From assembly GCA_042568575.1 (NCBI GenBank), contig JBHPIO010000012.1:1-36604 (forward strand): DNA of 36,604 nucleotides, given 5' to 3'. Shown piece by piece: positions 2,304-24,304 of the stretch. The stretch's first letter is position 1. Each line of letters begins with the position of its first letter. Position numbers and translations under genes: made by a program. The stretch is from Patescibacteria group bacterium. GTDB lineage: Bacteria; Patescibacteriota; Gracilibacteria; UBA1369; PNNO01. The notes under the pieces were generated by a model. That model saw nothing but the letters and a program-made list of their open reading frames with translations, did not search any database and had not been told where the DNA came from.

Positions 2304-2306
2304 TTT

Positions 2307-3257: not shown

Positions 3258-3259
3258 AC

Positions 3260-3288: not shown

Positions 3289-3311
3289 TAATCAATAAAA
3301 TAAATATAAAT

Positions 3312-6300
3312 ATGGCTATACTAAGAAAAATAAAAAAACACTTTGGACTGCTCTTCGTGACAGCACTATTGCTGTCTGTATTTGTTGTTCCTCAAACAGC
3401 TTCTGCTGACCTCTGTGATCAACTTGCAGATAAGACAGGAGGATTCTTCTCGTGTGGAGAAGGAGAAACTTCATTCACACAATTTCAGGGAGGATTAACT
3501 CCGCCAAGTACGGAAGGATATGATCCAAGCCTAGTACAGGAAACAAACCTGCGAGACTATATAGTGAACATTGTGAACTTTGTTCTTGGATTCCTTGGAC
3601 TGGTAGCAATGGTAATTGTGATTTACGGTGGTTTCTTATATGTAACCGCTGCGGGCGCGGAAGAACAAACAACAAAAGGAAAGAAAAGTATTATGTACGC
3701 CGTTATAGGTATAGTTATAATTTTAATTTCATTCGCATTAGTTAATACATTAATAGGAGGACTTGGAAAAGGAACAGATGCGGGCGTGGGAACAGGACAA
3801 CTTTCTGGGTCTGCACCTGATCAATTAACAGGAGATCAGACGCAAAATGTACAAAGATTATTCTTTCTTGCTTCTTCACAGGTGGAGAGAGCTGCTAAAG
3901 ATCTTGCTACAACATACTCACATTATATAGATGTAGATGACACACTTGCTGACTTAACAAGTGTTCCGCCAGCAGATACTCAACAACAGGTAACAATATT
4001 CTTAAATGACATGAAGCGTGCTCTTAGGAATGTGGTTTCTTCTGCAGGTGATTTGAGCCGTAGCGCAGAACAAGCAAAAATGGCTGAAGATCAGGTTGAT
4101 ATTTGGTTACGAGCAACAGAAGCACAATTAGCAAGAGAAACAGAAAGTGACATTGGTGATGTTGATTATTGGAAATTCTGGCAGGCTGATCCACAACTTG
4201 CAGACTTCCAGGGTGCAATTATGTCTCTAACAGTAGGACTTGAAGATGCTAACCTTCTTGATTTCCACGATGCGGTTAGTGATATCAAGTTTGAACTTGA
4301 GGACCTTAAGATTCAATTGGAGAACTCAGGATTTGTAGATACACAAGGAACTGATTTTGAATTATTCTATGACGATGCAATTGAGTCATTGGATGCTTTA
4401 TTAATTGGTGCTCCGGATAATATTCTTATTGTAGATGCGCTTACAGCATTAAGTGACTTGCACACAGTAGTGCAAAACATTCAATTCGTTGCTGCAATTA
4501 TTACAGCAGATGTAGATGACGGTAACGGACCGTTGATTGTTAACTTTGATGCACTTAGATCAGTTAGGCCAGATTATCAAACAATTAATGAAGACGATAT
4601 CTATTGGGATTTTGGTGACGGATCAGTTGCAGAAGGAAGATTTGCAGTTTCTCATGTATATAGAAAGACAGGAACATATGTAGTTAAAATGACTATTGAT
4701 GGGGATGCGGCAAATAATATTGCTGCAGGTGTTGCATTTAAAGATGTAGTAGTGCGGCCGCCTGCTTCCCAAATAAACCTAAAAGTAAATATCGGAGATC
4801 GCGACCTCGGCTACCTAAGCCAATACAAAGACGGTTTCCTAACAACAGACAGAAACAGATTCAACGTAACCCTAACAGAAGCGCGTGACATAGGTATCAT
4901 TTTCGATGCATCAGAAAGTCGCGGCGGCTTCCAATCAGAACAACAGCAAGAAGCTGGAGAAACATATATCCAAACAATAGCTTGGGACTTTGGTGACGGA
5001 ACCGATTCAATAATGGGAGAAATGGTTGCGGAAGATGTTCAAACACATTACTACGGAGAGCAGGGGACATATCCTGTAGTAGTTGAAGTAACAGACTCTC
5101 GTGGTATCCGTGACAGAAAAGTATTCGAAGTAGTAGTTGATTCACCAGCTGCAAGAATCTATGTGCAGCCAGGTGCTAAAGCAAAAATAAACGAACAAAT
5201 ATCATTTGATGCAGGAAATTCAGCAAGTGACGGTGGTCAGATTGTTGGTTACGACTGGCAGATCATTAACACACCTCTTCATTACACAGCTGATCAAAGT
5301 GAAGAAAGCTTTAATGAAACATTCGAAAATCCTGGTGTTTACAATGTAAGCCTTACAGTTACTGACAACGTAGGTGACTCAGCAACAGATACAACAAACC
5401 TTCTAATAGAATCAAAAGCGCCTGAGGCGAAGTTCACTTACAATATTCCTGATGACAGCAAACCTCATATATATGAGTTAGACGGAACAAAGAGTTTCGA
5501 TCCAGACGGAAATATTAATGAAGGTACATATACATATAAATGGACAGTGGCAGCTATTGATCCTGATTACGATTTCGTTGATGAAAACGGAGCAATCGAC
5601 GAGCAAGGTCACTTAAAAAACCGAACATACATTAAATTTTATAAAATAGGAGAATATCCAATTACTTTGGATGTGAATGATTTCAATGAACCGGAAAACC
5701 CTGGAGTTCCAGAATCTCAAACAATAAATGTTAACAGTATTCTGGATATCATGTTTAACGAAACTGATGTAACTTCAGCAATTCTCAATAACAATAGTGA
5801 AGCAGAAGTGACGCTAACAGGAATCTCAGAAAACGGTGTTGCATACGAATGGGACTTTGGTGACAACACTTCAACAACAACAGGAGATATAATTGCAGGA
5901 CAAACAACTGCTACTCACAAATATACATCTTCTGGAACATACGACGTTCGTCTAACTGTATTCGATAAAGAAGACAATGAAAACACAGTAAAACGAAGAG
6001 TTATGATTGGAGAGGCAGATAGCCCTCTTGCTGTGATTTCAATTAAAGTAGATGGTGAAGAACTATTTGATTTGTCTGAAGGAGTTACAGTAAATAGAAA
6101 GTCTGTAATCGAATTCAGCGCTGATAAGGCTCTAAACAGAGACGGAACAGGTCGAAGACTTGGTTACCAATGGGATTTTGGTGACACGCAGCGTTCAACA
6201 CAAAAAATAATTACACATAAATATAGTGATCTAAGTCCAACTGAACCTGGATACTACACTGCAACATTAAAGGTTGTTGATAAGAATGATCTCACAAGAA

Positions 6301-7787: not shown

Positions 7788-7799
7788 TCATATAAATTT

Positions 7800-13069: not shown

Positions 13070-13924
13070 CTAGGAAAACCGTTTCCATAATTTATCAGGA
13101 AGTTGGACTATATGCTTTTGCAGTCCAACTTCTTTTGGTGTAAATCCAAGAGCAAGGCAGAGCAATTGGCTCATATGCAAAACAGGCATCTTGAACTTCT
13201 TTTGATACAAGTCCATTTGAGTGTGGCAGAACGGGCAGTTTGTAACAATAAGGTCAGCATTTGACTCTTTAGTGTTACTTAGATATTTTCCACTCATCTT
13301 AGCGGCATCTTTCTTATGAGTAAGAGTGACGTGAAAGCCACAGCAATCAAGTTTTCCATCAACATCAACAGGGATTGCACCAAGTGCTTTAACAAAACTC
13401 TCAAAATTATCAGGATTTTCAGATTCCTGGTGTTGTCCTACAATTTTTGAAGGTCTAAGAATATGGCAGCCATAATACGTGGCCACTTTTAGGCCTGTTA
13501 GTGGGACTTTTACATGTTTCTTGATCTTTTCTAGACCGTAATCTTGAGTAAGCACCCAAAGCCAGTGCTTAATATCCAATTTGGCCTCGCACTTCATGTG
13601 AAAACGCTTAAGATATTGATTCGATTCTTCAAGCTTCTCTTTGTTTTCTTTTAATTCAATTAAATCCTTTCGAAGATTAACAACGCAAGTACTGCAAATA
13701 GTCATTATATCGAGATTTTGCTTTTCACTTAGAGCGAAATTCCGCGCATTTAGAGCAGTATTAAAGTCTTTGTTGGCCTCACGGACAACTCCAGCACCGC
13801 AACAGCTGAACTCCGGGATATCAACCAATTTTATGCCCAGCTTATCGCATGCAAGTCTCGTAGCTTTATCGTATTCGCTTGTAAGTTGTTTGGAAGCGCA
13901 GCCGGGAAAGTAAGCGTATTTCAT
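13070..13924 (-). CDS. CCG-domain (HdrB-like) subunit of an E-type succinate dehydrogenase/fumarate reductase (SdhE-type anchor)
   Basis: YFPGC, SCCGAG, CSTC, YYGC, DCCG and CPFC form two CCG domains. ATGA overlap with the upstream Fe-S subunit. Confidence 0.85.
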   Translation of the reverse strand: MKYAYFPGCASKQLTSEYDKATRLACDKLGIKLVDIPEFSCCGAGVVREANKDFNTALNARNFALSEKQNLDIMTICSTCVVNLRKDLIELKENKEKLEESNQYLKRFHMKCEAKLDIKHWLWVLTQDYGLEKIKKHVKVPLTGLKVATYYGCHILRPSKIVGQHQESENPDNFESFVKALGAIPVDVDGKLDCCGFHVTLTHKKDAAKMSGKYLSNTKESNADLIVTNCPFCHTQMDLYQKKFKMPVLHMSQLLCLALGFTPKEVGLQKHIVQLPDKLWKRFS

Positions 13925-14922
13925 AGATTGTTGAGGTTATCTCTTTCCTTATTTCTCTTTTTTTGTTTTTCATTTTGAGTTCTTTTAACATCTCTTCCAA
14001 GTTCAGCGATCTCTCCATGGTTCTTGATTTTTTTCATGAAGAAAGGAGGCAACTTTCCTTTGAAGAATAATTTGATTGCGGTGGGCAGTTCTTTCATCAC
14101 CCTAATAAATCCAAAAGTACCTACAGGCAGCCATGCTTCAGATAATTCTCCATACTTTTTAACTGATTTCTCAAATGTTCGTGTATGACGCGCCCCATCA
14201 TTATGAATCAGCCCTTCTTTAATGCTTTCTTCGCGAAGCTCAGAAATAACTTCTTGTGGTTCAATATTCATAGGGCAGTTTTCTGTTGAACGTTCACAAT
14301 GAGCACATGCCCAAATTTGCTTATCCACAAGTTTTTTAAGCCGCTCTTTCTTTTTGCCGTCGCGAACATCAAAAATATATCTGTGGGAAAGAACAGACGC
14401 AGCCGGTCCCAAATATTTTCTGTTTGCTTCTCGTGAAGGACAGTCAGAAAAACATGCCGCACACCATATACATTCGCTCGATTTCTCTATTTTATCAGCA
14501 TCTTCTGGAGTAATTCGATTCTCAGCCACGAGTTTTCCTGAATTTTTCTTTGCTTCAATCCACGGATTTGTACCCTTCATTTCATCGTAAAATGTCTCCA
14601 TATCCACAACAAGATCTTTAAGCACGGGCAAATTTCCAAGTGGCTCTATCTTGATTTCTCCAAATTTTAGAACTTCATCGTGCACAGATGCTTTACATGC
14701 AAGCTTTGCTCTGCTGTTTATACGAATTGCACACGAACCACAAATCCCGGCTTTACAAGATTGGCGGAAAGACAAAGTCGCATCGACGTTGTTCCGAATC
14801 GACAATAATGATTCAAGTACCGTTTCCCATGGTTGCACAACAAGTTCATACTCTTCAACGTATGATTCCTTGTCTTTTTTAGGATTAAACCTGCTAATTT
14901 TAAATCTAATCTTTTGGCTCAA
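13921..14922 (-). CDS. sdhB: Succinate dehydrogenase/fumarate reductase iron-sulfur subunit with C-terminal extension
   Basis: SCKAGICGSC..LAC [2Fe-2S] motif, DLVVD, CIWCAACFSDCP, third motif CAHCERSTENCP. TTG start overlaps the end of sdhA. Confidence 0.9.
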   Translation of the reverse strand: MSQKIRFKISRFNPKKDKESYVEEYELVVQPWETVLESLLSIRNNVDATLSFRQSCKAGICGSCAIRINSRAKLACKASVHDEVLKFGEIKIEPLGNLPVLKDLVVDMETFYDEMKGTNPWIEAKKNSGKLVAENRITPEDADKIEKSSECIWCAACFSDCPSREANRKYLGPAASVLSHRYIFDVRDGKKKERLKKLVDKQIWACAHCERSTENCPMNIEPQEVISELREESIKEGLIHNDGARHTRTFEKSVKKYGELSEAWLPVGTFGFIRVMKELPTAIKLFFKGKLPPFFMKKIKNHGEIAELGRDVKRTQNEKQKKRNKERDNLNNL

Positions 14923-16606
14923 TTGGTAGGGGATAACTGGTTATTGTAACGTCTTTGTATGTAACTTTTGGATCATCGTCGCCTTGATAATGTGTAAGGG
15001 AATGCTTATGAAACTTCTTATTATCTTTAAGTGGGAAATCTTTGCGTGCATGAGCCCCTCTGCTTTCTTTTCTTTTTTCAGCGCTCACAAAAAACGCACG
15101 TGAAATATCTAAGAGATTGCGAAGCTCAAGCGCTTCATAAAGCGCATAATTGTAGCAATTCTCGGAGCTTCCAAGCGTAACATTTTCATATTCCTCTCGT
15201 AATTTATATAAACCTTCCAGCCCTTTTGTTAAAGAAGTGTGACTTCTAAATATCCCGGCATTCTCCTCAAGTGTTTTAGTTAGTTCATGTTTGATTTTTG
15301 AATAATGAGTCCCTTTTTCACGTTTCAATAGTGTTTCGATTTCTTTGCTAGTCTCTTTAACAGGACTTTTTTCGATTTTAGATTCTGATTCATTTTGTGC
15401 ATATAAAGATGCAACTTCTCCGGCTCTTTTTCCAAATACAACGGTTTCCATAAGAGAATTCCCGCCAAGCCTGTTAGCTCCATGAAGATTCATACATGAA
15501 CACTCGCCGGCAGCATATAGGCCTTTAACACTTGTTTCGCAATCTTTATTAATGTCGATTCCGCCCATTAGGTAATGTGCCGCGGGACGAACAGGGATAG
15601 CTTCTTTTGTACAATCAATATCGGCAAAATCTTTAACAAGTTTATAAACTTGAGGAAGTCGCTTCTTAATTCTTTCTGCTCCCAAATGGGTGAGATCAAG
15701 TAAAACGGCACCGTGCACACCATGTCCGGAATCTATTTCCTGCTGAATTGCCTGAGCAACAACATCTCTGGATGCAAGCTCCATCTTTTCTGGAGCATAT
15801 CGTTTCATAAAGCGTTCACCTTTATTATTTATAAGATAGCCGTTTTCGCCCCGTGCAGCTTCCGTAACAAGTATGCCTTTGTACGCAAGGCTTGTAGGAT
15901 GAAACTGAATGAATTCGATGTCTTTTAGAGGGACGCCAGCTCTATATGCGATTCCAACTCCATCACCGGTGCTGGAAGTAGCATTCACGGTGTCTTGGAA
16001 TAGGTTTCCAGCCCCTCCGGTAGCAATAACGACTGACTTAGCCTTAATCTCGATTACTTCCGCAGTATGCATATCTAAAGCCAAAATTCCCTTAACTTTG
16101 CCTTCTTCAACTATTAAAGAATGGAAATGCCATTCGCTATGAATCGGGATCTCGTGACGCATCACTTCGGTTAATAGAGTTGAAAGCAGTATGTGCCCAG
16201 TGTAATCACGAGCAAAACAGGTTCGTGGGAACATCCCTCCACCAAATGGACGCTGAGCAATTGTCCCATCTTCATTTCTGCTAAATACCATTCCCATGTG
16301 TTCAAGCTCAATAACACATTCCGGTGCTTGTTCACAAAAGTATTCAACAGCATCTTGATCGTTCAAAAATTCACCACCTTTAACTGTGTCTCGAAAATGA
16401 TGCTCGATAGTATCTTCTCCATCTTCAGGGTGATTGTTTAGGGCGGCGTTCATGCCTCCTTGAGCCATACAGGTCTGACTACGTAAAGGGAAAAGCTTAG
16501 AAACGACTGCGCACGAAACGTTTTTAGTCTTTGCAACTTCAAGTGCGGCACGTAATCCCGTAGCACCACCTCCAATTATCACGACATCGTACGAAAACGT
16601 GCTCAT
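14906..16606 (-). CDS. sdhA: Succinate dehydrogenase/fumarate reductase flavoprotein subunit
   Basis: GGGATG Rossmann motif, AQGG, QFHPT, TEAARGE, ELASRDVV, HYLMGG, HGANRLGGNSL, ESRGAHAR. The likely start is ATG at 16606 (MSTFSYDVVIIGGG), not 16669. Confidence 0.92.
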   Translation of the reverse strand: MSTFSYDVVIIGGGATGLRAALEVAKTKNVSCAVVSKLFPLRSQTCMAQGGMNAALNNHPEDGEDTIEHHFRDTVKGGEFLNDQDAVEYFCEQAPECVIELEHMGMVFSRNEDGTIAQRPFGGGMFPRTCFARDYTGHILLSTLLTEVMRHEIPIHSEWHFHSLIVEEGKVKGILALDMHTAEVIEIKAKSVVIATGGAGNLFQDTVNATSSTGDGVGIAYRAGVPLKDIEFIQFHPTSLAYKGILVTEAARGENGYLINNKGERFMKRYAPEKMELASRDVVAQAIQQEIDSGHGVHGAVLLDLTHLGAERIKKRLPQVYKLVKDFADIDCTKEAIPVRPAAHYLMGGIDINKDCETSVKGLYAAGECSCMNLHGANRLGGNSLMETVVFGKRAGEVASLYAQNESESKIEKSPVKETSKEIETLLKREKGTHYSKIKHELTKTLEENAGIFRSHTSLTKGLEGLYKLREEYENVTLGSSENCYNYALYEALELRNLLDISRAFFVSAEKRKESRGAHARKDFPLKDNKKFHKHSLTHYQGDDDPKVTYKDVTITSYPLPIEPKD

Positions 16607-16673
16607 AAAGTTCGAAACAGTTAATGCGGTTTGCCGTTTTATATTAATGAAAAACCATATATAAAACAAACTT

Positions 16674-16721: not shown

Positions 16722-18536
16722 TTATACAGCTTCAGGTGCTACATAATCAGCACAATCAGATTCTGCAAGGTCGTTGTAAATAGCAACATCTACAATCTTT
16801 GCAAACTCAGCACGTGTGATAGTAGATCCACCTTCAAAGTGTTTTTCACCTTCAACATCTCTACCTGAGAAGATTCCACATTGATACGCTTTTTCTGCTT
16901 CATTAGCATACCATTCATCACCAGTGATATCCGGGAATGAATATGTGTCATATTCTGGAACTTCGAATCCAAGAACACGTAATACTACAGCAGCAGATTC
17001 TCCACGTAGGATTGATAGATCAGGACCAAAAGTTCCATCAGGATATCCGTTGAAGTATCCAAGTTCTTGAGCAGCATCTACGTAAGGGCAGAACCAGTCA
17101 GCCATGTCTACATCAACAAAAACATCAAAGAAAGAATCACAATCAGGAGTAGCGTCTCCATTACCTAAAGTAACGATTTTAGAAGCTTCTCCTCTTTTGA
17201 TTTCATCATCAGGACGGAACATCCCAGTTTCAGAATCTCCAGATACGATGTCAGCATTGAATAGTTCATCAATGAAGTCTTCAGCCCAGTGACCAGCTGC
17301 ATCTTCAGGACCTTCAGATGGAGGTTCTTCTGCAGGAACAGGTTCTGGAACGAAAGGTGTCACTCCGTTTGCTTCGTCAAGAACTGCTTGCATTGCAGCA
17401 ATATCCTGATCAAGACATTCTCCCGCATCTTGAAGTGCTTGTAGTTCTGCAAGACATTCTTCAAGTTCAACAGCAAGAAGATCTATTTCTAAGTTTTTAT
17501 CTTCGATTAGATCTAATACGTCAAAATATTCAGTAAGAGCATCAAAATAGTCATTCAATAGAGTATCTAATTCAGCATTTAATGCTTCTTCAGAAGGTAA
17601 CTGCTCAGAACTATGAGTTTGCCAGTAGTCATCCAAATTTTGGATCATATCCTCAATTTGACCTTCGTTTGTGAAACACCATTCAACATTTCCAAAGTTG
17701 TGAGCGATTCCCCAAGCTTGACCGGAAGCAGGCTCGAAATCTTCACAGTCTGCACCGTGTTGACCTCCTGCATCTTCAACCATTTGTTCGAAGTCGGCTT
17801 TAAGTTGAGCCCAGTCCGCTAGTTGTTCGTAGATACCGTCGATTTCAGTTTCAAGATCTGTAAGTTCAGCATCAAGAATATCTGCTTCAAGTTCAAGAGC
17901 AGCAAGATCATCTAAAGCAGTATCAAGATCGTTAGCGATAGTTTCGCAGTCAGGACACTCTACAGCTGCAGGACAGTTTGTGTCTTCACATTCAAGAATC
18001 AATACAATAAGAGCATCAAGTAAATCAAGTAAGTCTTCAATGTCATCCGCATCAGTATCCGCATCAGTAATCAAGTCGAGAAGCACATTCATTACGTCTT
18101 CCCAGTCTGTAGTTGTCAGTGGATCAAGCGGTGAAAAGAATCCAAAGAAGTCATTGTACTGGGTTTCATCAGCGAAACAATATACTGATCCATCGTAATT
18201 AAAAGATGACCAGTAAGGGAGAACAGTTGCACTGTCTTCACAGGTTGTACCTGTAGAAACAAATGCTAGTCCTTCCATTGCAGTAACAGGATCAACTACT
18301 TCTAGTAGTCCTTCCATATTAGTTACTTGTGTCTCAACATCTGTAATGATGCTGCCAAGGTCGGCATATGCCGCATCATAATCGTCTTGATGTGTTTGAC
18401 AGTCAACACACGTCGTTGGATCTTCTTGTGCTGGCGATGCAGGTGTAGCAAAAACAGACGCTCCATTTGAGATAAGAAGCGTTGCTACCAAAATCACGCC
18501 AACAACAGGAGAAAGCAGTTTTGCTAGTTTTCTCAT
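16722..18536 (-). CDS. S-layer homology (SLH) domain protein with acidic, Cys-paired coiled-coil N-terminal region
   Basis: Signal peptide (ASVFA) and three SLH repeats (GHWAEDFI..FRPDDEIKRGE; WFCPYV..GYPDGTFGPDLSILRGE; FPDI..WY..TITRAE). Confidence 0.88.
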   Translation of the reverse strand: MRKLAKLLSPVVGVILVATLLISNGASVFATPASPAQEDPTTCVDCQTHQDDYDAAYADLGSIITDVETQVTNMEGLLEVVDPVTAMEGLAFVSTGTTCEDSATVLPYWSSFNYDGSVYCFADETQYNDFFGFFSPLDPLTTTDWEDVMNVLLDLITDADTDADDIEDLLDLLDALIVLILECEDTNCPAAVECPDCETIANDLDTALDDLAALELEADILDAELTDLETEIDGIYEQLADWAQLKADFEQMVEDAGGQHGADCEDFEPASGQAWGIAHNFGNVEWCFTNEGQIEDMIQNLDDYWQTHSSEQLPSEEALNAELDTLLNDYFDALTEYFDVLDLIEDKNLEIDLLAVELEECLAELQALQDAGECLDQDIAAMQAVLDEANGVTPFVPEPVPAEEPPSEGPEDAAGHWAEDFIDELFNADIVSGDSETGMFRPDDEIKRGEASKIVTLGNGDATPDCDSFFDVFVDVDMADWFCPYVDAAQELGYFNGYPDGTFGPDLSILRGESAAVVLRVLGFEVPEYDTYSFPDITGDEWYANEAEKAYQCGIFSGRDVEGEKHFEGGSTITRAEFAKIVDVAIYNDLAESDCADYVAPEAV

Positions 18537-18663
18537 GTTAATTGGTTAGGGTTTTTGAAGATATATAGGTATAAGATGTTTCGAAAAAAAACACCTAGAT
18601 AACTTTACGTTATTTCGAGTGTTAATGCAAGTTAAAGGTTTGTAAATTGCTAGTGCACTTTTA

Positions 18664-18692
18664 TTGACTTTGGGATACATTTTACTTAAAGT
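18664..18692 (+). promoter_or_regulatory. sigma70-type promoter of tRNA-Gln
   Basis: TTGACT (18664-18669), 17 nt spacer, TAAAGT (18687-18692), 12 nt before the tRNA. Confidence 0.6.
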
Positions 18693-18704
18693 GTCATTCA
18701 GTGA

Positions 18705-18779
18705 TGGGGCGTGGCCAAGTGGTAAGGCACCTGGTTTTGGTCCAGGCATTCGGGGGTTCGAGTCCCTCCGCCCCAGCCA
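18705..18779 (+). tRNA. tRNA-Gln(UUG), CCA encoded
   Basis: Acceptor stem TGGGGCG/CGCCCCA, D-arm GCCAAGTGGTAAGGC, anticodon stem CCTGG/CCAGG with TTG at 18737-18739, T-loop GGTTCGAGTCC, 3' GCCA. Confidence 0.97.
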
Positions 18780-18782
18780 TTC

Positions 18783-18882
18783 AGTTCCACTTGCTACGAG
18801 TGAGTCCTTTTTGAGGACTCATCGAGTAGGAAGAGAACTAATCTCGAGCTCGTAAGAGCGAGAGGCGAGCAAGCTTCTTCTA
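18783..18882. repeat. GC-rich nested palindromic (REP/MITE-like or terminator) element downstream of the tRNA
   Basis: Hairpin TGAGTCCT-TTTTG-AGGACTCA (18801-18821), hairpin GCTC-GTAA-GAGC (18848-18859), outer complementarity CTTGCT (18790-18795) / AGCAAG (18868-18873). Confidence 0.55.
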
Positions 18883-18890
18883 TTAATACA

Positions 18891-18920
18891 GCCTCCCAAC
18901 ACAAACAACAGAATTTCTTC
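18891..18920 (+). repeat. Left direct repeat of the oah-had cassette
   Basis: GCCTCCCAACACAAACAACAGAATTTCTTC, 26/30 identical to 21564-21593. Confidence 0.8.
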
Positions 18921-18929
18921 AATTTAAAT

Positions 18930-18979
18930 TTGCCAAATCTGTATTTTCTACTATAGAATTCTGATTGTGTTCTTTGACA
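18930..18979 (+). promoter_or_regulatory. Putative promoter plus boxA-like antitermination motif of oah-had
   Basis: TTGCCA (18930-18935), 18 nt spacer, TAGAAT (18954-18959). TGTTCTTTGACA (18968-18979) matches E. coli rrn boxA TGCTCTTTAACA at 10/12. Confidence 0.45.
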
Positions 18980-19131
18980 TATTTAGTTTTTAGCAGGCAA
19001 TTATTTGTATTCGAATAAATCGGGCAAAATCCAAGACATTCAGGTTTTAGGGCTTTGATCCGGCTTATCGGGTTCAAATGTCCTGCCTGCTATACCAACC
19101 CAACAATGGGAGAAAGCGCAGAGAACAAACA

Positions 19132-20316
19132 ATGCACGAAGACACACTTTTTGCAAAGACCCCTTGGGTCAAGAGAACGGGTGAGTTGGTAGATCATCGG
19201 TTGTTCAGCGATGAATGGCTCAACGGCGAAGCGCCGGGGGTCAACTACGAGCTGAAACCGGTGGTGAATCCGAAGACCGGCGAGGAAATGCCGGACTGCT
19301 ACTACGCCGTGGTGACGCTCAACAACCCTCGGCAGTTCAACAGCTACACGACCGCGATGGTCAAGGGCGTGATCTCGGCGATCACCAACGCGAGTTTGGA
19401 TCGACGGGTGAAGGCCGTGGTGTTTACCGGCACCGGTGACATGGCATTTTGTACCGGCGGTAATACCGAGGAGTACTCTTCTTTCTACGCCCTCAGGCCC
19501 GAGGAGTACATGACCTACATGCAACTCTTCATCATGATGGTGGACTCCATCCTGAACTGCTACAAGCCAGTCATTTGCCGGATCAACGGTATGCGCGTGG
19601 CTGGCGGTCAGGAGATTGGCATGGCGTGCGATTGGTCGTACGCCAGCGACTTGGCCATCATCGGTCAGGCCGGTCCCCGTCACGGTTCTGCAGCAGTGGG
19701 AGGTTCGAGTGACTTCCTCCCGCACATGCTGTCCGCGGAGCTCGCCATGGAAAGCTGCCTCGCTTGCGAGATGTGGAGCGCCTACAAGATGCGTCATCTC
19801 GGACTCATCATGGATGCTTTTCCGGTCTTGCGACGAGGCGATGAATGGATTGTCAACCCGACGGTTATCACCGAGGAGTATGTTCGGGCGGGCAAGGTCG
19901 TACTCGGTGAGCCCAAGACCGGCGATGAGCTGAAGGCTGGCTACGCGCTGATCAAGCAAGCTCGCAACCCCGACGACGACGAGATCGTGATCGACTTCGC
20001 GAGGCTGGACGCTGCGGTAGTTGCCAAGGTCTGGCAACTGACCCATCTGTTCCCGGGCTGTGAGCGGCAGACCTTTATGCAGATCCGTTCGCAGAAAGCT
20101 GCTACGTGGAATCAGCTCAAGCATCTCCACGCGATGTGGCTCGGTCCCAATCAGATGTTCGAAGGCGCTGCCGGTTTCGCGGCCTTTGCCAATCGCAAGG
20201 CCACCGGCAGGGTTGACCAGATCGACTGGGCAGCCCTACATGGTGCCATTTCGCGCGGCGAGATGGTCGATGCAGAGCTGTTCGCGAAGATCCTTCCGCA
20301 TCCGCCCAAGGAGTAG
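19132..20316 (+). CDS. oah: 6-oxocyclohex-1-ene-1-carbonyl-CoA hydrolase (ring-opening, crotonase fold; Oah/BamA/BzdY)
   Basis: Family-specific motifs NNPRQFNSYTTAMVKGV, AFCTGGNTEEY, KPVICRINGMRVAGGQEIG, GQAGPRHGS and CEMWSAYK. Likely start is ATG 19132 (MHEDT..). Confidence 0.93.
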   Translation: MHEDTLFAKTPWVKRTGELVDHRLFSDEWLNGEAPGVNYELKPVVNPKTGEEMPDCYYAVVTLNNPRQFNSYTTAMVKGVISAITNASLDRRVKAVVFTGTGDMAFCTGGNTEEYSSFYALRPEEYMTYMQLFIMMVDSILNCYKPVICRINGMRVAGGQEIGMACDWSYASDLAIIGQAGPRHGSAAVGGSSDFLPHMLSAELAMESCLACEMWSAYKMRHLGLIMDAFPVLRRGDEWIVNPTVITEEYVRAGKVVLGEPKTGDELKAGYALIKQARNPDDDEIVIDFARLDAAVVAKVWQLTHLFPGCERQTFMQIRSQKAATWNQLKHLHAMWLGPNQMFEGAAGFAAFANRKATGRVDQIDWAALHGAISRGEMVDAELFAKILPHPPKE

Positions 20317-20363
20317 TTCAGACAACACCAACCACACAAGTGTGGAGGAAGCGAGACAAACCT

Positions 20364-21470
20364 ATGTCGTTACCCGACGTAATCAACTGTTGGCTTCTAA
20401 CCAAGCCAGGCAACCCTCGAGACGGTACCCCTCCGGAGTTCGAACGCGGAACCCTCCCCATGCCGGAGATCGAAGAAGGCTGGGGCGTGGTTCAGGTGGC
20501 CGGTTGTGGCGTGTGCCACACCGACATCAGCTTTGCCTACATGGGAGTGCCAACGGTCAACGGTCCGCCCAAAGGTTCTCCTCTCGTCCTCGGACATGAG
20601 GTCAGCGGCACGATGGTCGCTGGACCTGAAGACCTGATCGGCAAACAAGTGATCGTGCCCGCGGTTATTCCGTGCCACGACTGTGTGGCCTGCAACAGAG
20701 GACGCGAAAACCTCTGCGTGAATATGCAGATGCCCGGCAACAGTATGGGTCAGTACGGCGGCTTCGCCGACTACATGCCGGTCCCGGTGCACGACCTCTG
20801 TGTGATTGATGATTGCAACGGCATCCCCCTGGAGCATCTGGCTGTTGTGGCTGACGCTGTGACCACCCCTTATCAGGCGGCCATACAGGCCGATGTCATG
20901 CCCGGCGATGGCGTAATCGTGACGGGTCATGCCGGCGGTATCGGCAAACACATGGTGCAAATCTGCAAAGCCCTCGGCGCCAATCACGTCATCGGTTTCG
21001 ATCCGAGTGAGCGTCGAGATGAGATGAAGGAGTTCGGCCTTTCCCATGCCATCGACTCGACCATGGAGGGCGGTTTCAAAGCGGTCAAGGGTGCTTTCAA
21101 GGCCTACTGCAAGGAGCACGGCCTCAATCCCTATTGGGGATGGAAGATCTTCGAGTGCAGCGGTACCGCCGCCGGCCAGAGCCTGGCCTTTGGTTTGCTT
21201 CCGAAGGGTGGCACTCTCATGATCGTGGGTTTCACCCCCGACAAGGTTGAGGTTCGCCTCTCGAACCTGATGGTCTTCGGGGCAAAGGTCGAAGGTGTCT
21301 GGGGCTGCAACCCCGTGCACTATCCCAAGGCGCTTAAGCGAGTGCTGGACGGTTACGTCAAGATCAGCCCCCTCGTTCAAACCCACCCGGTAAGCCAGTT
21401 CCTCGAAGCGCTCGAGGAGGCACACGAAAGCCCTCCCTGGCAGCGCATCGTGCTCACCCCGGACTGGTAG
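20364..21470 (+). CDS. had: 6-hydroxycyclohex-1-ene-1-carbonyl-CoA dehydrogenase (Zn-dependent MDR; Had/BamQ/BzdX)
   Basis: AGCGVCHTD, GHE, structural Zn CHDCVAC..C, MPGN, VVADAVTTPYQA, WKIFECSG, RLSNLM, WGC, and adjacency to oah. Likely start is ATG 20364, with GGAGG at 20344-20348. Confidence 0.92.
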   Translation: MSLPDVINCWLLTKPGNPRDGTPPEFERGTLPMPEIEEGWGVVQVAGCGVCHTDISFAYMGVPTVNGPPKGSPLVLGHEVSGTMVAGPEDLIGKQVIVPAVIPCHDCVACNRGRENLCVNMQMPGNSMGQYGGFADYMPVPVHDLCVIDDCNGIPLEHLAVVADAVTTPYQAAIQADVMPGDGVIVTGHAGGIGKHMVQICKALGANHVIGFDPSERRDEMKEFGLSHAIDSTMEGGFKAVKGAFKAYCKEHGLNPYWGWKIFECSGTAAGQSLAFGLLPKGGTLMIVGFTPDKVEVRLSNLMVFGAKVEGVWGCNPVHYPKALKRVLDGYVKISPLVQTHPVSQFLEALEEAHESPPWQRIVLTPDW

Positions 21471-21520
21471 CACCCCACTACAACTGAATAAAGGGGGAAA
21501 CTAAGGCAGGACAATATTAT

Positions 21521-21555
21521 ACGGGGTAGATGACATCGTTCGTCTCCCCGTTTTT
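21521..21555 (+). terminator. Rho-independent terminator after had
   Basis: ACGGGG-TAGATGA...TCGTCT-CCCCG hairpin followed by TTTTT. Confidence 0.7.
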
Positions 21556-22914
21556 CTAACTAGGCCTCCCAATATAAACAACTGGATTTCTTCTAAGTCT
21601 TGTTCTGTGAACCTTTTGACCTCGTTTTCGTCCTTTCCAACTAATAACTTGTGCGATGCCTCGTTTTTTATCGAGCCATCTCTCAAAAATCATATCGTGA
21701 TTTCCACCCCAATAATTATTCCATCCGTTTCCGTGGATTCGGTCTCCTCTTTGAAGTGTTGTAGCTAATTTGTAAAAAGGGTAATGAACATTTCCACATC
21801 TGCTTCGTTGTGGATCGCCTTTTGGTCTGCGAACCTTTCTGCCGTTTACATATGTATATGCATAGCTGTAGTCGCGATAAACTGTTGCTCTTCTTTTCAC
21901 ACCAGCTAATTTATAAACTCGATTTCCCCAGTCCGTACAATGTCTGGCGTAAATATGGTTCGTTGTGATGTGTCTTGCAACTTGAATAATCCTGTCTTGT
22001 AATGACAATCCTTCTATAGTTTCAAGAAACGTTCGTAGTCTTTCAGGATCCGTAGCAGATCTGATAATAGATTCAACTTTCATACTCACTTTAAAAGGAT
22101 AACTTCTAAGTCGTCTTCGTTTGTGAACTCTCTTTTTTGGCTTTTTGTAAGGCCTTGATGGACTTGATGATAACCCTGGAGTAGCAACTCCAGCCCGTCC
22201 TACAGAAGGCAAAGATGCCATCCTTGGAGATACCCGAGGTTCTGATTCTTCTTGTTTTTTATAAAACTTATATTCCTTTTCTATGTCAGCTTTATCTTTC
22301 TGAAGCAAATAAACACGAGTAGGCGGCTTTGTTGTGAAAGTCGCAATGTATTGTCCGTAAATAGTGTAATATCCGATTTTTTCTCCGTGAACTCCGTCAA
22401 CCACTGGCACTTTTCTTATTCCAACAACCCTTCGCCCATCCGGATAAACCACGAGTACTTTTTTCCATTCAGGAGAAATAATGTGTCCAAGTCCAATTCC
22501 AAATTCCCAATCGTTTCTCATTTTATGTCGTCCGATACCTCTGTAATCCACTGTTCGATACTTGTAATATTTCTGACCTTCATGTTCCAAAGCTTTTGAG
22601 TCTCGCATTTTTCGTGAGAACATAGCAGCCATTGCTTTGTAACTCTGGAAGGCTTTTAACTTCTTACCTTTCCTTTTACGATAAAGACGCTTTGCTCCGC
22701 CACTTTGAATGTCGTGAAGCGTAGCTTTGTCAGCATCTTTCAAATGACTCTCAATAATCTTTTCAGATAGCTGTTTAAGCTCAACCTGCTTGCCAAGAGT
22801 ATTTCTAAGCTTACTTGCTGTCTTTTTAACAGAAGCACGTTTTACAGGGGCAAGCTTTAGATTTTTAAGGACTTCTTTTTTTCGTCCTGGTTTTTCCTTA
22901 TGTTTAAGTGACAT
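21556..22914 (-). CDS. Highly basic hypothetical protein with probable C-terminal NlpC/P60-like (Cys-His) domain
   Basis: K/R-rich. The C-terminal HCTDWGNRVYKLAG ... LQRGDRI ... NHDMIF pattern resembles the papain-like NlpC/P60 layout. Extended -10 TGGTATAAT upstream. Confidence 0.6.
   Translation of the reverse strand: MSLKHKEKPGRKKEVLKNLKLAPVKRASVKKTASKLRNTLGKQVELKQLSEKIIESHLKDADKATLHDIQSGGAKRLYRKRKGKKLKAFQSYKAMAAMFSRKMRDSKALEHEGQKYYKYRTVDYRGIGRHKMRNDWEFGIGLGHIISPEWKKVLVVYPDGRRVVGIRKVPVVDGVHGEKIGYYTIYGQYIATFTTKPPTRVYLLQKDKADIEKEYKFYKKQEESEPRVSPRMASLPSVGRAGVATPGLSSSPSRPYKKPKKRVHKRRRLRSYPFKVSMKVESIIRSATDPERLRTFLETIEGLSLQDRIIQVARHITTNHIYARHCTDWGNRVYKLAGVKRRATVYRDYSYAYTYVNGRKVRRPKGDPQRSRCGNVHYPFYKLATTLQRGDRIHGNGWNNYWGGNHDMIFERWLDKKRGIAQVISWKGRKRGQKVHRTRLRRNPVVYIGRPS
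21564..21593 (+). repeat. Right direct repeat of the oah-had cassette (lies in the last codons of 21556..22914)
   Basis: GCCTCCCAATATAAACAACTGGATTTCTTC, 26/30 identical to 18891-18920. Confidence 0.8.
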
Positions 22915-23014
22915 GTTTTTGTATTAGTTTTCTCTACATTATACCATAAAACACTATTTGTTTCACATAAAAAAACTAACGTGATAAGATTCACTGAGAT
23001 ATAAAATCTCTCTT

Positions 23015-24304
23015 ATGAACTCACCAACTTTAAAACGCGATCTAGGATTATTTCACGCCACTGCAGTAGGAGTTGGTATTATTTTAGGTGCGGGAATTTA
23101 TGTTCTTTTAGGAGCAGCTGCAGGGATTGCCGGTAATTCTGTGTGGGTTTCTTTCTTTCTTGCGGCTCTTGTCGCGCTTTTGACCGGTCTTAGTTATGCA
23201 GAATTATCTTCTATTTATCCAACAGATGCAGCCGAGTACGACTACACAGAGAAAGCTTTTAAAAAGAAGGGACTTGCATTTTTTGTTGCTTATCAGGTGA
23301 TTTTGTCAGCAATAATTTCATCTGCAACTGTTGCAATGGGATTTGCAGGCTATTTTAGTGCTCTCTTTGGAATGAATCACATGATTATTATTTCGATTCT
23401 CGTGATTGTTGTCTTTTCAATAATAAATTTTAGAAGTATTAAGGGGTCAGCTTTAACAAATGTTGTTTGCGCAGCATTAGAAGTTATTGGTCTTTTTGTG
23501 ATTATTTTCCTTGCGATCCCACATATTGGATCTGTTTCTTACACAGAAATGCCACAAGGATTCGATGGAGTTTTAAAGGCTTCGGCATTGGTGTTTTTTG
23601 CATTTCTAGGGTTCGAATCAATCGTAAAACTATCCGAAGAAGTAAAGGATCCAACTAAAAACATTCCACGAGCACTTCTCCTATCACTCCTAATAACAAC
23701 AGTGCTATATATCCTCGTTGCAATCGCAGCCGTAAGCATTCTCGACTGGGAAGCGCTTGGTGCTTCAAAGGCACCACTGGCCGATGTAGCCGCAACTGTT
23801 CTTGGAAACAATGCATTTATTGTGCTCTCAGTAATCGCTCTTTTCTCAACTGCAAATACAGTCTTAATTAGTTTAATTGCAGGCTCCCGCGCACTCTATG
23901 GAATCGGATCTGGATATCGTTTATTAAAACCTTTTACAAAAGTTCATCCAAAAACAAGAACACCTCATTATGCAATTTTTGCAGTAATGATTTTCGCTAT
24001 TCTTTTCTCACTAATAGAAGATATCGGATTTATTGCAGAACTCACAAACTTCACTCTTTTTGTCACATTCGCGATCATCAACCTCGCTGTTATCGTTCTG
24101 CGATACAACGCTCCAAATGAAAAAAGGCCATTCAAAATACCTTTGAATATAGGCAAATTCCCAATTCTTGCCTTACTTGGAATTCTGTCGTGTCTATTCT
24201 TCATCACTCAACTAACAACCACCATAATCCTAGGAGGAGTGGCGCTTTCTGTGGTTGGTTTCGTTATATATGGTGTCTTGAGGTTGGGGGAAAAGCGTGA
24301 TTAA
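23015..24304 (+). CDS. APC-family amino acid permease
   Basis: LKRDLGLF..GIILGAGIY, YAELSS, FFAFLGFE..SEEVKDPTKNIPRA, RTPHYA, RPFKIP; about 12 TM segments. Confidence 0.93.
   Translation: MNSPTLKRDLGLFHATAVGVGIILGAGIYVLLGAAAGIAGNSVWVSFFLAALVALLTGLSYAELSSIYPTDAAEYDYTEKAFKKKGLAFFVAYQVILSAIISSATVAMGFAGYFSALFGMNHMIIISILVIVVFSIINFRSIKGSALTNVVCAALEVIGLFVIIFLAIPHIGSVSYTEMPQGFDGVLKASALVFFAFLGFESIVKLSEEVKDPTKNIPRALLLSLLITTVLYILVAIAAVSILDWEALGASKAPLADVAATVLGNNAFIVLSVIALFSTANTVLISLIAGSRALYGIGSGYRLLKPFTKVHPKTRTPHYAIFAVMIFAILFSLIEDIGFIAELTNFTLFVTFAIINLAVIVLRYNAPNEKRPFKIPLNIGKFPILALLGILSCLFFITQLTTTIILGGVALSVVGFVIYGVLRLGEKRD

What the first reader, a model, noticed from the sequence alone, without database searches (positions are those of the whole stretch)
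19132..21470. Anaerobic aromatic ring-cleavage genes oah/bamA + had/bamQ on a GC-rich cassette in a CPR-like genome
Seen: two intact ORFs of about 60% GC carrying the diagnostic motifs of Oah and Had, in an AT-rich genome with CPR hallmarks. Known: Had and Oah catalyse consecutive steps of the benzoyl-CoA pathway (6-hydroxy- to 6-oxocyclohex-1-ene-1-carbonyl-CoA, then hydrolytic ring opening towards 3-hydroxypimelyl-CoA). They normally sit with dch and a benzoyl-CoA reductase in dedicated anaerobic aromatic degraders, and CPR bacteria are regarded as minimal-metabolism episymbionts. No dch, bcr/bamB or CoA ligase is present in the window. From memory, the sequences (MRVAGGQE, CEMWSAYK, MPGNSxGxYGGF, RIVLTPD) look like the Syntrophus/Desulfobacterota type but are diverged (e.g. 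HGSAAVGG where I recall HGSAP(V/I)GG). Inference: the module was acquired from a host or neighbour and may let a symbiont intercept or assist host CoA-ester metabolism, hinting at an aromatic-degrading syntroph as host. It would also confound bamA marker-gene surveys.
Basis: partly seen in the sequence, partly recalled or inferred. Interest (0 to 1): 0.9.

Follow-up and report, generated by a model that had tools for sequence, protein, structure and literature searches.

The report
Acquired ring-cleavage operon in a CPR bacterium
A tiny symbiont-type (CPR) bacterium carries a foreign-looking two-gene operon for the ring-opening steps of anaerobic benzoate breakdown, inserted beside a tRNA gene and absent from its closest relatives, although the rest of that pathway was not found in its genome.

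Summary
Window 19132-20316 and 20364-21470 hold two intact, co-oriented genes of 58.5% and 59.7% GC in a 38-40% GC, 1.2 Mb genome whose RpoB is closest to Peregrinibacteria/Patescibacteria. The second gene is a clear Had: above the NCBIfam cutoff and a full-length match to the solved Had structures 7QUL/7QUY. The first is closest by far to Oah/BamA but scores just below the equivalog cutoff (430 against 464 bits). Both lack close relatives: best identity is 51-58% for Oah and 51% for Had among billions of proteins, and both sit on terminal branches 10-13 times the median. A same-genus genome has an empty site: there tRNA-Gln is followed directly by the permease gene, so window 18781-22978 is extra. 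A significant 30-nt direct repeat brackets a promoter-oah-had-terminator unit. No dch, ring reductase, CoA ligase, CoA transferase or acyl-CoA dehydrogenase was found in the 82%-complete genome. A second GC-rich island, also unique to this genome, encodes a 3-hydroxyacyl-CoA dehydrogenase/hydratase fusion and a thiolase, and pta-ackA is native. Horizontal acquisition is well supported. A host as donor and use of host CoA esters remain speculation. Verdict: a real, divergent new member of a known enzyme pair in an unexpected lineage.

The parts
16722..18536 (-). Native left flank: SLH-domain surface protein
   Evidence: PF00395 SLH, 3 stretches. Orthologue split over G401:C23 and C35 at 81-83% identity.
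18705..18779 (+). tRNA-Gln (UUG). Its 3' end is the left boundary of the genome-specific segment.
   Evidence: ARAGORN and Rfam RF00005, 63 bits. G401 1485-1601 matches window 18664-18780 at 91%.
18781..22978 (.). Segment present here but absent at the orthologous site of same-genus genome G401 (4.2 kb)
   Evidence: In G401:C23, tRNA-Gln (1526-1600) is followed by the permease gene (1642-2925). blastn homology resumes at window 22979.
18783..18865 (+). Small repeat element of native composition, directly after the tRNA
   Evidence: Two more copies at C1:194737-194802 (88%) and C1:56101-56178 (85%).
18891..18920 (+). Left copy of the 30-nt imperfect direct repeat
   Evidence: 26 of 30 identical to 21564-21593. 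0 of 2000 simulated flank pairs reach 26, maximum 23. No other copy in the genome. It matches only the last ~10 codons of ORF452, with a stop just upstream.
18930..18959 (+). Promoter-like site in the AT-rich leader
   Evidence: TTGCCA-18-TAGAAT, 10 of 12. The scan as a whole is not above chance: 3 found, 1.9 expected.
19132..20316 (+). [quoted passage not shown]
   Evidence: TIGR03200 430 bits over profile positions 1-359 of 360. Best non-self identity 51-58%. Keeps 127 of 147 near-invariant columns.
20364..21470 (+). had/bamQ gene: 6-hydroxycyclohex-1-ene-1-carbonyl-CoA dehydrogenase, 368 aa, GGAGGA upstream of the ATG
   Evidence: TIGR03201 370 bits, above cutoff. PDB 7QUL/7QUY 285/282 bits, full length. 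Sequence upstream of the start.
21521..21556 (+). Hairpin followed by a U-run (terminator-like) between had and ORF452
   Evidence: RNA fold -29.6 kcal/mol, z -2.44. The consensus scan did not list it.
21564..21593 (+). Right copy of the 30-nt direct repeat; it lies in the 3' end of ORF452
21556..22914 (-). 452-aa basic protein of native composition; the C-terminal ~150 residues look like CHAP/NlpC-P60 (lead only); not a recombinase
   Evidence: No Pfam or PHROG hit. Atlas feature scores 0.86-0.87, structural TM by row up to 0.71. Homologues at 24-38% identity in 13 of 40 relatives, none in G401.
23015..24304 (+). Native right flank: amino-acid permease
   Evidence: PF13520. 89% identical orthologue at G401:C23:1642-2925.

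Best explanation
Window 19.0-21.5 kb is a real, horizontally acquired two-gene operon (promoter-like site, oah, had, terminator-like hairpin). It sits in a Peregrinibacteria-related CPR genome, inside a 4.2-kb genome-specific segment directly 3' of tRNA-Gln. Had is a true 6-hydroxycyclohex-1-ene-1-carbonyl-CoA dehydrogenase homologue. The first gene is a divergent member of, or sister to, the Oah/BamA ring-hydrolase family. The pair came as a unit from a GC-rich (about 56-63% GC) lineage that is not sampled at close range and is related to a small group of MAGs with the same oah-then-had order. Inferred mechanism, not shown: Had oxidises 6-hydroxycyclohex-1-ene-1-carbonyl-CoA with NAD+, and Oah hydrates and hydrolytically opens the ring to 3-hydroxypimelyl-CoA. 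A second island unique to this genome (3-hydroxyacyl-CoA dehydrogenase/enoyl-CoA hydratase fusion plus thiolase) could carry this on to glutaryl-CoA and acetyl-CoA, and the native Pta-AckA pair could turn acetyl-CoA into ATP. The genome shows no way to make the CoA-ester substrate, so the module would depend on an intermediate supplied from outside the cell's own metabolism.
For: Identity: HMM scores; Had against 7QUL at 285 bits, next ADH 86 bits; Oah keeps 127 of 147 and Had 93 of 124 near-invariant columns; the above-cutoff G264 Oah keeps 112 of 147. Real insertion: (empty site in G401 ending exactly at the tRNA-Gln 3' end); (30-nt repeat, 0 of 2000 simulations as good); (synteny with G401 also on the left: sdhA next to the SLH gene). 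Lineage-specific: Had in 1 of 13 family genomes; Oah in 2 of 401 phylum genomes sampled. Joint origin: Oah and Had both attach nearest L021/L023/L030, the only 3 of 46 adjacent pairs in oah-then-had order; those loci are 57-66% GC. Branch built up before transfer: GC3 0.72-0.75; lowest FYMINK fraction of all homologues and replacements biased to GARP, 10 against 5 and 8 against 2. Downstream steps: fusion and thiolase at C31:24319-27611, found in G000 only among 13 family genomes; ackA and pta adjacent on C23. Expression signals.
Against: Oah is below the curated equivalog cutoff (430 against 464 bits). It has 20 of 147 near-invariant positions changed, several of them charged; Had has 31 of 124 changed. 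Terminal branches are 10-13 times the median, so substrate specificity may differ. Not found in the 81.8%-complete genome: dch, any adenylate-forming CoA ligase, BcrA/D, AFOR/BamB, CoA transferases of family III or I, acyl-CoA dehydrogenase including glutaryl-CoA dehydrogenase, and the ATP-grasp_5 domain of ADP-forming acyl-CoA synthetases. So neither the supply of substrate nor the fate of glutaryl-CoA is visible. Each protein was seen on one contig only. No read-level or expression data could be obtained. The fusion and thiolase match only generic beta-oxidation models below their cutoffs, so their link to pimelyl-CoA intermediates is inference. High GC alone is not proof of recent transfer in this family.
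Confidence: 0.6

Rival explanations
1. The pair is functional but acts on a substrate other than the benzoyl-CoA-derived intermediates, for example another cyclic or branched hydroxy/oxo-enoyl-CoA, or it belongs to a lower-pathway-only route for alicyclic acids. The name Oah/Had would then overstate what it does.
For: Oah is below the equivalog cutoff. Branches are very long. 20 of 147 and 31 of 124 near-invariant positions are changed. Ten neighbouring ORFs were annotated in two of the nearest relatives, L021 and L030. They include a glutaryl-CoA dehydrogenase-type gene and EtfAB but no dch or ring reductase. The own genome lacks dch and reductases.
Against: Had passes its equivalog cutoff and aligns over its full length to solved Had structures. 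Oah matches profile positions 1-359 of 360, including the family-specific C-terminal part, at 430 bits against 96 for the next family. It keeps more near-invariant positions than an above-cutoff Oah. Adjacency of oah and had is the family norm: 46 of 81 loci.
Confidence: 0.22
2. The operon is a recently taken-up passenger with no role in this organism. It is still intact only because too little time has passed for decay.
For: It is a singleton in the lineage. Composition shows no shift toward the host genome. The pathway has no visible input or complete output. No mobility gene or selection signal could be measured.
Against: Both ORFs are intact, with a ribosome-binding site ahead of had, an AT-rich promoter-like leader and a terminator-like hairpin. 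A second, separately located island supplies just the next two reaction types and is also unique to this genome. Small CPR genomes would be expected to lose unused DNA quickly (general knowledge, recalled).
Confidence: 0.14
3. The GC-rich segment is an assembly chimera or mis-binned DNA from a co-occurring anaerobe, not part of the CPR chromosome.
For: The composition changes sharply. The cassette is on record on one contig only. No sequencing runs could be listed to check spanning reads.
Against: The segment is internal to a 36.6-kb contig, with native genes syntenic to G401 on both sides. The GC shifts fall in intergenic DNA next to a promoter-like leader and a hairpin. A significant direct repeat brackets it. 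About a dozen similar islands are embedded in this genome's large contigs. Equivalent GC-rich genes occur in six other assemblies of the family, including a single-contig genome. Contamination estimate is 0.19%.
Confidence: 0.04

Closest known systems
[quoted passage not shown]
   Same: It is the best family hit by a wide margin (430 against 96 bits) and covers profile positions 1-359 of 360. It has the crotonase N-terminal domain (PF00378) plus the family's C-terminal extension. It lies next to had. It keeps 127 of 147 near-invariant columns.
   Different: It is below the curated cutoff (464.45). It is at most 58% identical to any of 5.8 billion clustered proteins. Its terminal branch is 1.06 against a median of 0.11. 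Twenty near-invariant residues are changed, including the Pro of the HGSAP motif. The host is a CPR bacterium.
Had / BamQ, 6-hydroxycyclohex-1-ene-1-carbonyl-CoA dehydrogenase (TIGR03201; PDB 7QUL, 7QUY)
   Same: It is above the equivalog cutoff. It aligns over its full length to both solved structures (285 and 282 bits). It has the MDR zinc-dehydrogenase domains PF08240 and PF00107, with the Cys-rich and glycine-rich motifs visible in the alignment.
   Different: It is 51% identical to the nearest cluster representative and forms its own 50% cluster among 1.84 billion representatives. 31 of 124 near-invariant columns are changed. The gene order oah-then-had is seen in only 3 of 46 adjacent pairs elsewhere.
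Genomic islands inserted at the 3' end of tRNA genes
   Same: The extra DNA starts at the base after tRNA-Gln relative to the congener. The cargo unit has foreign composition and is bracketed by a direct repeat.
   Different: There is no integrase, transposase or other mobility gene in the segment. The repeat does not overlap the tRNA: it duplicates the 3' end of a neighbouring native gene, 111 nt downstream of the tRNA. The segment also contains a gene of native composition.
Complete benzoyl-CoA degradation gene sets of anaerobic aromatic degraders such as Syntrophus, Geobacter and Thauera (names recalled; the Thauera-type BamR/BamQ/BamA naming was seen in passages of PMC10570749)
   Same: It has the two consecutive modified beta-oxidation steps, plus candidate enzymes elsewhere in the genome for the following dehydrogenase and thiolase steps.
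   Different: No dch/bamR, class I or class II reductase marker, CoA ligase, or glutaryl-CoA dehydrogenase was found in the genome.
BadI / MenB branch of the crotonase superfamily
   Same: The N-terminal crotonase core aligns to MenB structures (90 bits, residues 59-240) and to BadI (92 bits).
   Different: These scores are far below the Oah score, and these families lack the Oah C-terminal region that is present here.

Membership tests
Oah/BamA (TIGR03200 equivalog) | Whole-protein score at or above the curated cutoff of 464.45 bits | tested here: not met
   430.4 bits and 430.5 bits. The G264 Oah reaches 564.8 bits.
Oah/BamA (TIGR03200 equivalog) | Full-length architecture: crotonase core plus the family-specific C-terminal region | tested here: met
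   Profile positions 1-359 of 360 aligned in one stretch. PF00378 covers residues 77-250 only.
Oah/BamA (TIGR03200 equivalog) | Retention of residues that are near-invariant in the family | tested here: inconclusive
   127 of 147 kept and 20 changed. That is more than an above-cutoff member keeps (112 of 147). Catalytic residues are not defined by any solved Oah structure.
Oah/BamA (TIGR03200 equivalog) | Genomic association with had | tested here: met
   had starts 47 nt after the oah stop on the same strand. 46 of 81 comparison loci have an adjacent pair.
Oah/BamA (TIGR03200 equivalog) | [quoted passage not shown] | not testable with these tools
   Needs an enzyme assay.
Had/BamQ (TIGR03201 equivalog) | Whole-protein score at or above the curated cutoff of 338.65 bits | tested here: met
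   369.9 bits.
Had/BamQ (TIGR03201 equivalog) | Full-length similarity to experimentally solved Had structures, well separated from generic alcohol dehydrogenases | tested here: met
   7QUL 284.8 bits and 7QUY 281.6 bits over residues 9-366. The next hit, an ADH, scores 85.8 bits.
Had/BamQ (TIGR03201 equivalog) | NAD+-dependent oxidation of 6-hydroxycyclohex-1-ene-1-carbonyl-CoA | not testable with these tools
   Needs an enzyme assay.
Complete anaerobic benzoyl-CoA pathway | Dienoyl-CoA hydratase (dch, TIGR03189) | tested here: not met
   Best hits 40.9 and 20 bits against a cutoff of 292.5. Genome 81.8% complete.
Complete anaerobic benzoyl-CoA pathway | Ring reductase: class I (BcrAD_BadFG, PF01869) or class II (BamB, AFOR_N, PF02730) | tested here: not met
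   0 matches for each.
Complete anaerobic benzoyl-CoA pathway | CoA activation by a ligase (TIGR02262) or a transferase (PF02515, PF01144) | tested here: not met
   0 matches for each.
Complete anaerobic benzoyl-CoA pathway | Glutaryl-CoA dehydrogenase (Acyl-CoA_dh_1, PF00441) | tested here: not met
   0 matches.
Integrase-mediated tRNA-associated genomic island | Integrase or recombinase gene within the island | tested here: not met
   The only other ORF in the segment has no Pfam or PHROG hit and gives CHAP/NlpC-P60-like leads.
Integrase-mediated tRNA-associated genomic island | Direct repeats at both ends derived from the tRNA 3' end | tested here: not met
   A repeat exists, but it derives from the 3' end of ORF452, not from the tRNA, and it brackets only the oah-had unit.
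Patescibacteria (CPR), Peregrinibacteria-related | Universal marker phylogenetic affinity and a small genome | tested here: met
   RpoB core is 84% identical to proteins named Patescibacteria group or Candidatus Peregrinibacteria. Genome 1.20 Mb. The tool's own grouping places it in a phylum whose sampled genomes are mostly about 0.9-1.5 Mb.

The most novel reading that the evidence does not exclude
This CPR episymbiont has assembled, from at least two separately integrated GC-rich islands, a four-enzyme module: Had, Oah, a 3-hydroxyacyl-CoA dehydrogenase/hydratase fusion and a thiolase. The module would let it feed directly on a partner's dearomatised benzoyl-CoA intermediates and convert them to acetyl-CoA, then to ATP through its native Pta-AckA. 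Because it encodes no CoA ligase or transferase, this would imply hand-over of CoA thioesters themselves from host to symbiont, a kind of metabolite sharing not documented for CPR bacteria. It would also point to an unsampled GC-rich aromatic-degrading anaerobe as the host.
Probability: 0.12. Interest if true: 0.85.

Novelty: new member of a known kind. Interest (0 to 1): 0.55.

Why it matters
CPR bacteria are usually described as fermentative symbionts with very little metabolism. If this finding is real and the genes are expressed, ring-cleavage genes of the benzoyl-CoA pathway would be added to the list of functions these organisms pick up by gene transfer. The partial pathway, with no CoA-activating enzyme, poses a sharp and testable question about which metabolites pass between a CPR cell and its partner. 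The divergence of both enzymes, with nothing closer than about 50-58% in billions of proteins, also shows that an unsampled GC-rich lineage carries a deep branch of Oah/Had. Two practical points follow. bamA-based marker surveys will rarely meet such genes, since Oah was found in 2 of 401 CPR genomes sampled. And high GC alone is not a safe sign of recent transfer in this CPR family, because some family-wide surface-protein genes are just as GC-rich.

Tried and rejected
Read-level junction check: the look-up of sequencing runs listed no run for window 18400-22100 (none was listed, which is no evidence either way; no RNA holder listed).

Left repeat copy as the remnant of a longer paralogue of ORF452: rejected. 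Only about 10 codons match and a stop lies just upstream. tblastn found nothing further.

Shared boundary motifs among the GC-rich islands (an integron- or cassette-like system): rejected. The 30-nt repeat, the leader and the tail have no other copies in the genome. Only the 18783-18865 element recurs, and not beside the islands.

Empty site for the second (C31) island: a 13-kb DNA query against G401 matched only a 79-nt element, so it was uninformative. Absence of the fusion gene from G401 rests on the protein search.

Sisterhood of the two CPR Oah proteins (window and G264): they pair with 99% SH-aLRT support, but both are long branches. Each attaches to the same basal grade when the other is removed. 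I treat the pairing as unproven.

Common donor from codon usage: RSCU of oah+had correlates 0.89 with the fusion and 0.72 with the thiolase, but also 0.79-0.84 with the family-wide Cys-rich genes. It therefore shows little beyond shared GC3.

dN/dS: not attempted, because no homologue is closer than about 50-58%.

Missing steps among unannotated GC-rich ORFs: eight ORFs gave no NCBIfam hit, and only one gave a Pfam hit, a borderline SLH domain. One of them (C31:20932-22008) looks like an SMP-30/gluconolactonase-type beta-propeller, which is not a CoA-activating enzyme.

Literature: three searches for oah/bamA or benzoyl-CoA together with Patescibacteria or CPR returned 1, 1 and 4 papers. Passages of PMC10766756 and PMC10570749 mention Patescibacteria only as community members and assign the pathway genes to other MAGs. 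The four papers and the three were seen as listings only. Supplementary files were not consulted and might hold per-MAG gene tables.

Primer-level effect on bamA surveys was not tested.
Full report
**Observation.** They run 19078/19132-20316 and 20340/20364-21470, both on the + strand and both intact. In 500-nt windows, GC rises from 0.39 at 18501-19000 to 0.53-0.60 between 19001 and 21500, then falls to 0.41. Per gene, oah has GC 0.585 and GC3 0.747, and had has GC 0.597 and GC3 0.724. Native genes of the same genome have GC3 of 0.26-0.32.

**Family assignment.** The first protein hits TIGR03200 (dearomat_oah) at 430.4 bits over profile positions 1-359 of 360, and the next family scores 96 bits. 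The curated cutoff is 464.45, so it falls just short. The second protein hits TIGR03201 (dearomat_had) at 369.9 bits against a cutoff of 338.65.
- Had aligns over its full length to two solved Had structures, 7QUL at 284.8 bits and 7QUY at 281.6 bits. The next structure, an alcohol dehydrogenase, scores 85.8 bits.
- No Oah structure exists in the PDB copy. The best match is MenB at 90 bits, covering the crotonase core only.
- Among 80 Oah homologues, 147 alignment columns are at least 97% conserved. The window's protein keeps 127 of them. An Oah that scores above cutoff, from another CPR genome (G264), keeps 112.
- For Had, 93 of 124 such columns are kept, measured against 52 homologues.
- Both homologue sets were chosen by similarity to the query, which biases these counts.

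**Divergence.** In 5.8 billion clustered proteins, the only 100% Oah match is the window's own protein, seen on one contig. The next-best listed matches are 51-58% identical. Across 80 loci from named genomes the identity is 51-55%.
- Had is at most 50.5% identical to the Had genes in those loci.
- Among 1.84 billion cluster representatives, Had is its own cluster, and the next representative is 51% identical.
- In a tree of 82 Oah rows, the window's terminal branch is 1.06 against a median of 0.11.
- In a tree of 60 Had rows, it is 0.81 against 0.064.

**Organism.** The window is the whole of contig C4 in a 1,203,139-bp, 31-contig assembly. Contig GC is 34-42%, completeness 81.8% and contamination 0.19%. 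Apart from its own record, the RpoB core is 84% identical to proteins named Patescibacteria group bacterium or Candidatus Peregrinibacteria bacterium. The window also carries CPR-type pilin-like genes. The CPR claim is supported. It is general knowledge, recalled here, that marker-based completeness tends to underestimate CPR genomes.

**The insertion.** tRNA-Gln(UUG) lies at 18705-18779. In the same-genus genome G401, contig C23 carries three features in a row:
- the SLH-protein gene (1-1104, minus strand, 81% identical);
- tRNA-Gln (1526-1600);
- the amino-acid permease gene (1642-2925, 89% identical).

blastn aligns G401 1485-1601 to window 18664-18780 (91%) and G401 1606-2227 to window 22979-23600 (80%). 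So window 18781-22978 is extra DNA that begins at the base after the tRNA. On the left, synteny continues: G401:C35 has the rest of the SLH gene followed by sdhA.

The extra segment holds, in order:
- an ~80-nt element of native composition, with two more copies on C1;
- a 30-nt direct repeat copy at 18891-18920;
- an AT-rich leader with a promoter-like site at 18930-18959 (10 of 12 matches, though the scan as a whole is not above chance);
- oah;
- had, preceded by GGAGGA;
- a strong hairpin plus U-run at 21521-21556;
- the second repeat copy at 21564-21593, inside the 3' end of a 452-aa gene of native composition on the minus strand.

The repeat is 26 of 30 identical. None of 2000 simulated flank pairs reached 26, and the maximum was 23. 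It occurs nowhere else in the genome. The left copy matches only the last ~10 codons of the 452-aa gene.

The 452-aa protein has no Pfam or PHROG hit. It gives only leads toward a CHAP/NlpC-P60 cell-wall hydrolase domain. No mobility gene is visible, so the route of integration is unknown. Illegitimate or short-homology recombination after DNA uptake is my inference.

**Distribution.**
- Oah at E <= 1e-30 was found in 2 of 401 sampled genomes of the phylum: the window's own genome and G264.
- Had was found in 1 of 13 genomes of the family.
- G264's Oah scores 564.8 bits and is 45% identical to the window's. It sits at the very end of a 30-kb contig of 38-49% GC that carries his-biosynthesis and aminoacyl-tRNA synthetase genes.
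- G264 may be a second, independent case, but a contig end is weak evidence.
- The pairing of the two CPR Oah proteins in the tree is not reliable.

**Origin.** Of 81 comparison loci, 46 have a strong Had gene within 300 bp of oah on the same strand. In 43 the order is had-then-oah. Only 3 (L021, L023, L030) share the window's oah-then-had order.
- The same three are the nearest rows for Had. Together with L022 they are also the nearest rows for Oah.
- The two genes therefore share a history and probably arrived together.
- These loci are 56-66% GC. In L021, oah is 58% and had is 60% GC.
- Ten neighbouring ORFs were annotated in L021 and L030. They include a glutaryl-CoA dehydrogenase-type gene, EtfAB and unrelated genes, but no dch or reductase.
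- The window's proteins have the lowest FYMINK fraction of all homologues compared.
- Their lineage-specific replacements lean toward GARP residues: 10 against 5 for Oah, 8 against 2 for Had.
- That is the opposite of what AT pressure in the CPR genome would produce.
- With GC3 showing no shift toward the host genome, the long branches most likely built up in a GC-rich donor lineage that has not been sampled closely.

**Pathway census in the own genome (81.8% complete).** These markers gave no match or no significant match:

| Function | Model | Result |
|---|---|---|
| Dienoyl-CoA hydratase (dch) | TIGR03189 | best 40.9 bits, cutoff 292.5 |
| Adenylate-forming CoA ligase | TIGR02262 | 0 matches |
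| Acyl-CoA dehydrogenase | PF00441 | 0 matches |
| Class I ring reductase / activator | PF01869 (BcrAD_BadFG) | 0 matches |
| Class II ring reductase (BamB type) | PF02730 (AFOR_N) | 0 matches |
| CoA transferase family III | PF02515 | 0 matches |
| CoA transferase family I | PF01144 | 0 matches |
| ADP-forming acyl-CoA synthetase domain | PF13549 (ATP-grasp_5) | 0 matches |

Present are acetate kinase (in 12 of 13 family genomes) and, next to it, phosphotransacetylase.

**A second acyl-CoA island.** A second GC-rich island lies at C31:24319-27611. It encodes a 660-aa fusion, with 3-hydroxyacyl-CoA dehydrogenase at the N-terminus and enoyl-CoA hydratase at the C-terminus. It also encodes a thiolase that scores 338 bits on TIGR01930, above its cutoff of 240.55. 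Within the family, the fusion gives a strong match in this genome only. One other genome has a weak hit at 26% identity. Its best match anywhere is 51% identical. Homologues near oah in the 81 loci are distant, at 25-36%.

**GC-rich islands in general.** The genome has about a dozen further islands of 53-62% GC, each with one to three genes. They encode:
- three large Cys-rich repeat proteins;
- an OPT transporter;
- a GT87 glycosyltransferase;
- several proteins with no family assignment.

The OPT transporter is unique to this genome within the family. The Cys-rich proteins, however, have homologues in 13 of 13 family genomes. In 6 of 7 loci checked those homologues are themselves 55-62% GC (GC3 0.63-0.80) inside 27-45% GC flanks. 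So high GC alone does not date a transfer in this family. The case for recent gain of oah-had rests on the empty site and on distribution, not on composition alone. These islands, one of them in a single-contig genome, also make an assembly artefact very unlikely.

**Mechanism (inferred).** From established knowledge of the pathway (reaction scheme recalled, not read here), Had oxidises 6-hydroxycyclohex-1-ene-1-carbonyl-CoA to the 6-oxo compound, and Oah adds water and cleaves the ring to 3-hydroxypimelyl-CoA. The fusion enzyme and thiolase could then give 3-oxopimelyl-CoA, followed by glutaryl-CoA plus acetyl-CoA. Pta-AckA could yield ATP from the acetyl-CoA. The steps before the operon (CoA activation, ring reduction, Dch) and after it (glutaryl-CoA oxidation) are not encoded as far as the assembly shows. 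Either the organism receives the intermediate from a partner, or the enzymes act on another substrate, or the operon is idle. I put these at roughly 0.6 (including the identity and HGT claims), 0.22 and 0.14, with an assembly chimera at 0.04.

**Literature and novelty.** Three full-text searches that combined the pathway with Patescibacteria or CPR found no report of oah/bamA or had in a CPR genome. In the two papers read as passages, Patescibacteria appear as community members of hydrocarbon-degrading cultures, and the pathway genes belong to other MAGs. Supplementary tables were not seen. The enzymes are of a known kind. What is new is a deeply divergent pair, integrated in a CPR chromosome, as part of a partial pathway.

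**Limits.** The cassette was seen in one assembly on one contig. There are no reads, no expression data and no close homologues for selection tests. The trees are unrooted and made with a quick search, and the sequence of interest sits on a long branch.

Noticed in passing
G000:C26:83100-85643, C2:36570-39020, C12:17378-19462; loci L131-L136: Large Cys-rich repeat surface proteins (TIGR02232 / DUF4215) are GC-rich islands here (57-59% GC). In 6 of 7 homologous loci from other genera of the family they are also GC-rich (55-62% GC, GC3 0.63-0.80), although the proteins are only about 29-46% identical. Either GC-richness is kept up for long periods in these genes, or they are repeatedly re-acquired.
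   Followed up: partly
window 13070-16669 (-): Native-composition sdhA, sdhB and an HdrB-like SdhE-type subunit (succinate dehydrogenase/fumarate reductase) lie 2 kb from the cassette. SdhA scores above the model cutoff in 8 of 13 family genomes. This is unusual respiratory-type equipment for a CPR lineage and a possible sink for reducing equivalents.
   Followed up: partly
G000:C31:24319-29211 and C31:20932-22008: A second GC-rich island holds a HADH/ECH fusion, a thiolase and a GT87-family glycosyltransferase. A separate GC-rich ORF 2 kb upstream looks like an SMP-30/gluconolactonase-type beta-propeller (atlas score 0.96, TM 0.83).
   Followed up: partly
L138 (G264:C13:10400-30355), Oah at 18342-19493: Another genome of the same phylum carries an above-cutoff Oah (564.8 bits, about 56% GC) at the end of a 38-49% GC contig that also carries hisG, hisD, hisB, a hisHAF fusion, argS and ileS. 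Whether had follows cannot be seen, because the contig ends.
   Followed up: partly
window 18783-18865; G000:C1:194737-194802; C1:56101-56178: A ~70-80-nt repeated element with internal hairpins has three copies in the genome at 85-88% identity. It has no Rfam match at gathering threshold.
   Followed up: no
G000:C31:30555-30633 and G401:C11:1-79: A 79-nt stretch is 95% identical between the two congeners while the surrounding 13 kb gave no DNA match. A weaker copy lies at G000:C23:28988-29040. ARAGORN finds no tRNA there.
   Followed up: no
window 1149-10244 (+): A run of genes encodes Mbov_0395-family pilin-like conjugal-transfer domains and very large proteins (1491 and 814 aa) with PKD-like repeats. 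There is a weak hit to the CPR pilus protein PamR.
   Followed up: no
G000:C3:35853-37634: A GC-rich (55%) OPT-family oligopeptide transporter gene was found in this genome only among 13 family genomes.
   Followed up: partly
G000:C1:201500-204000 (L018): A stretch of about 50-55% GC without long ORFs. It may be rRNA. It was fetched but not examined.
   Followed up: no
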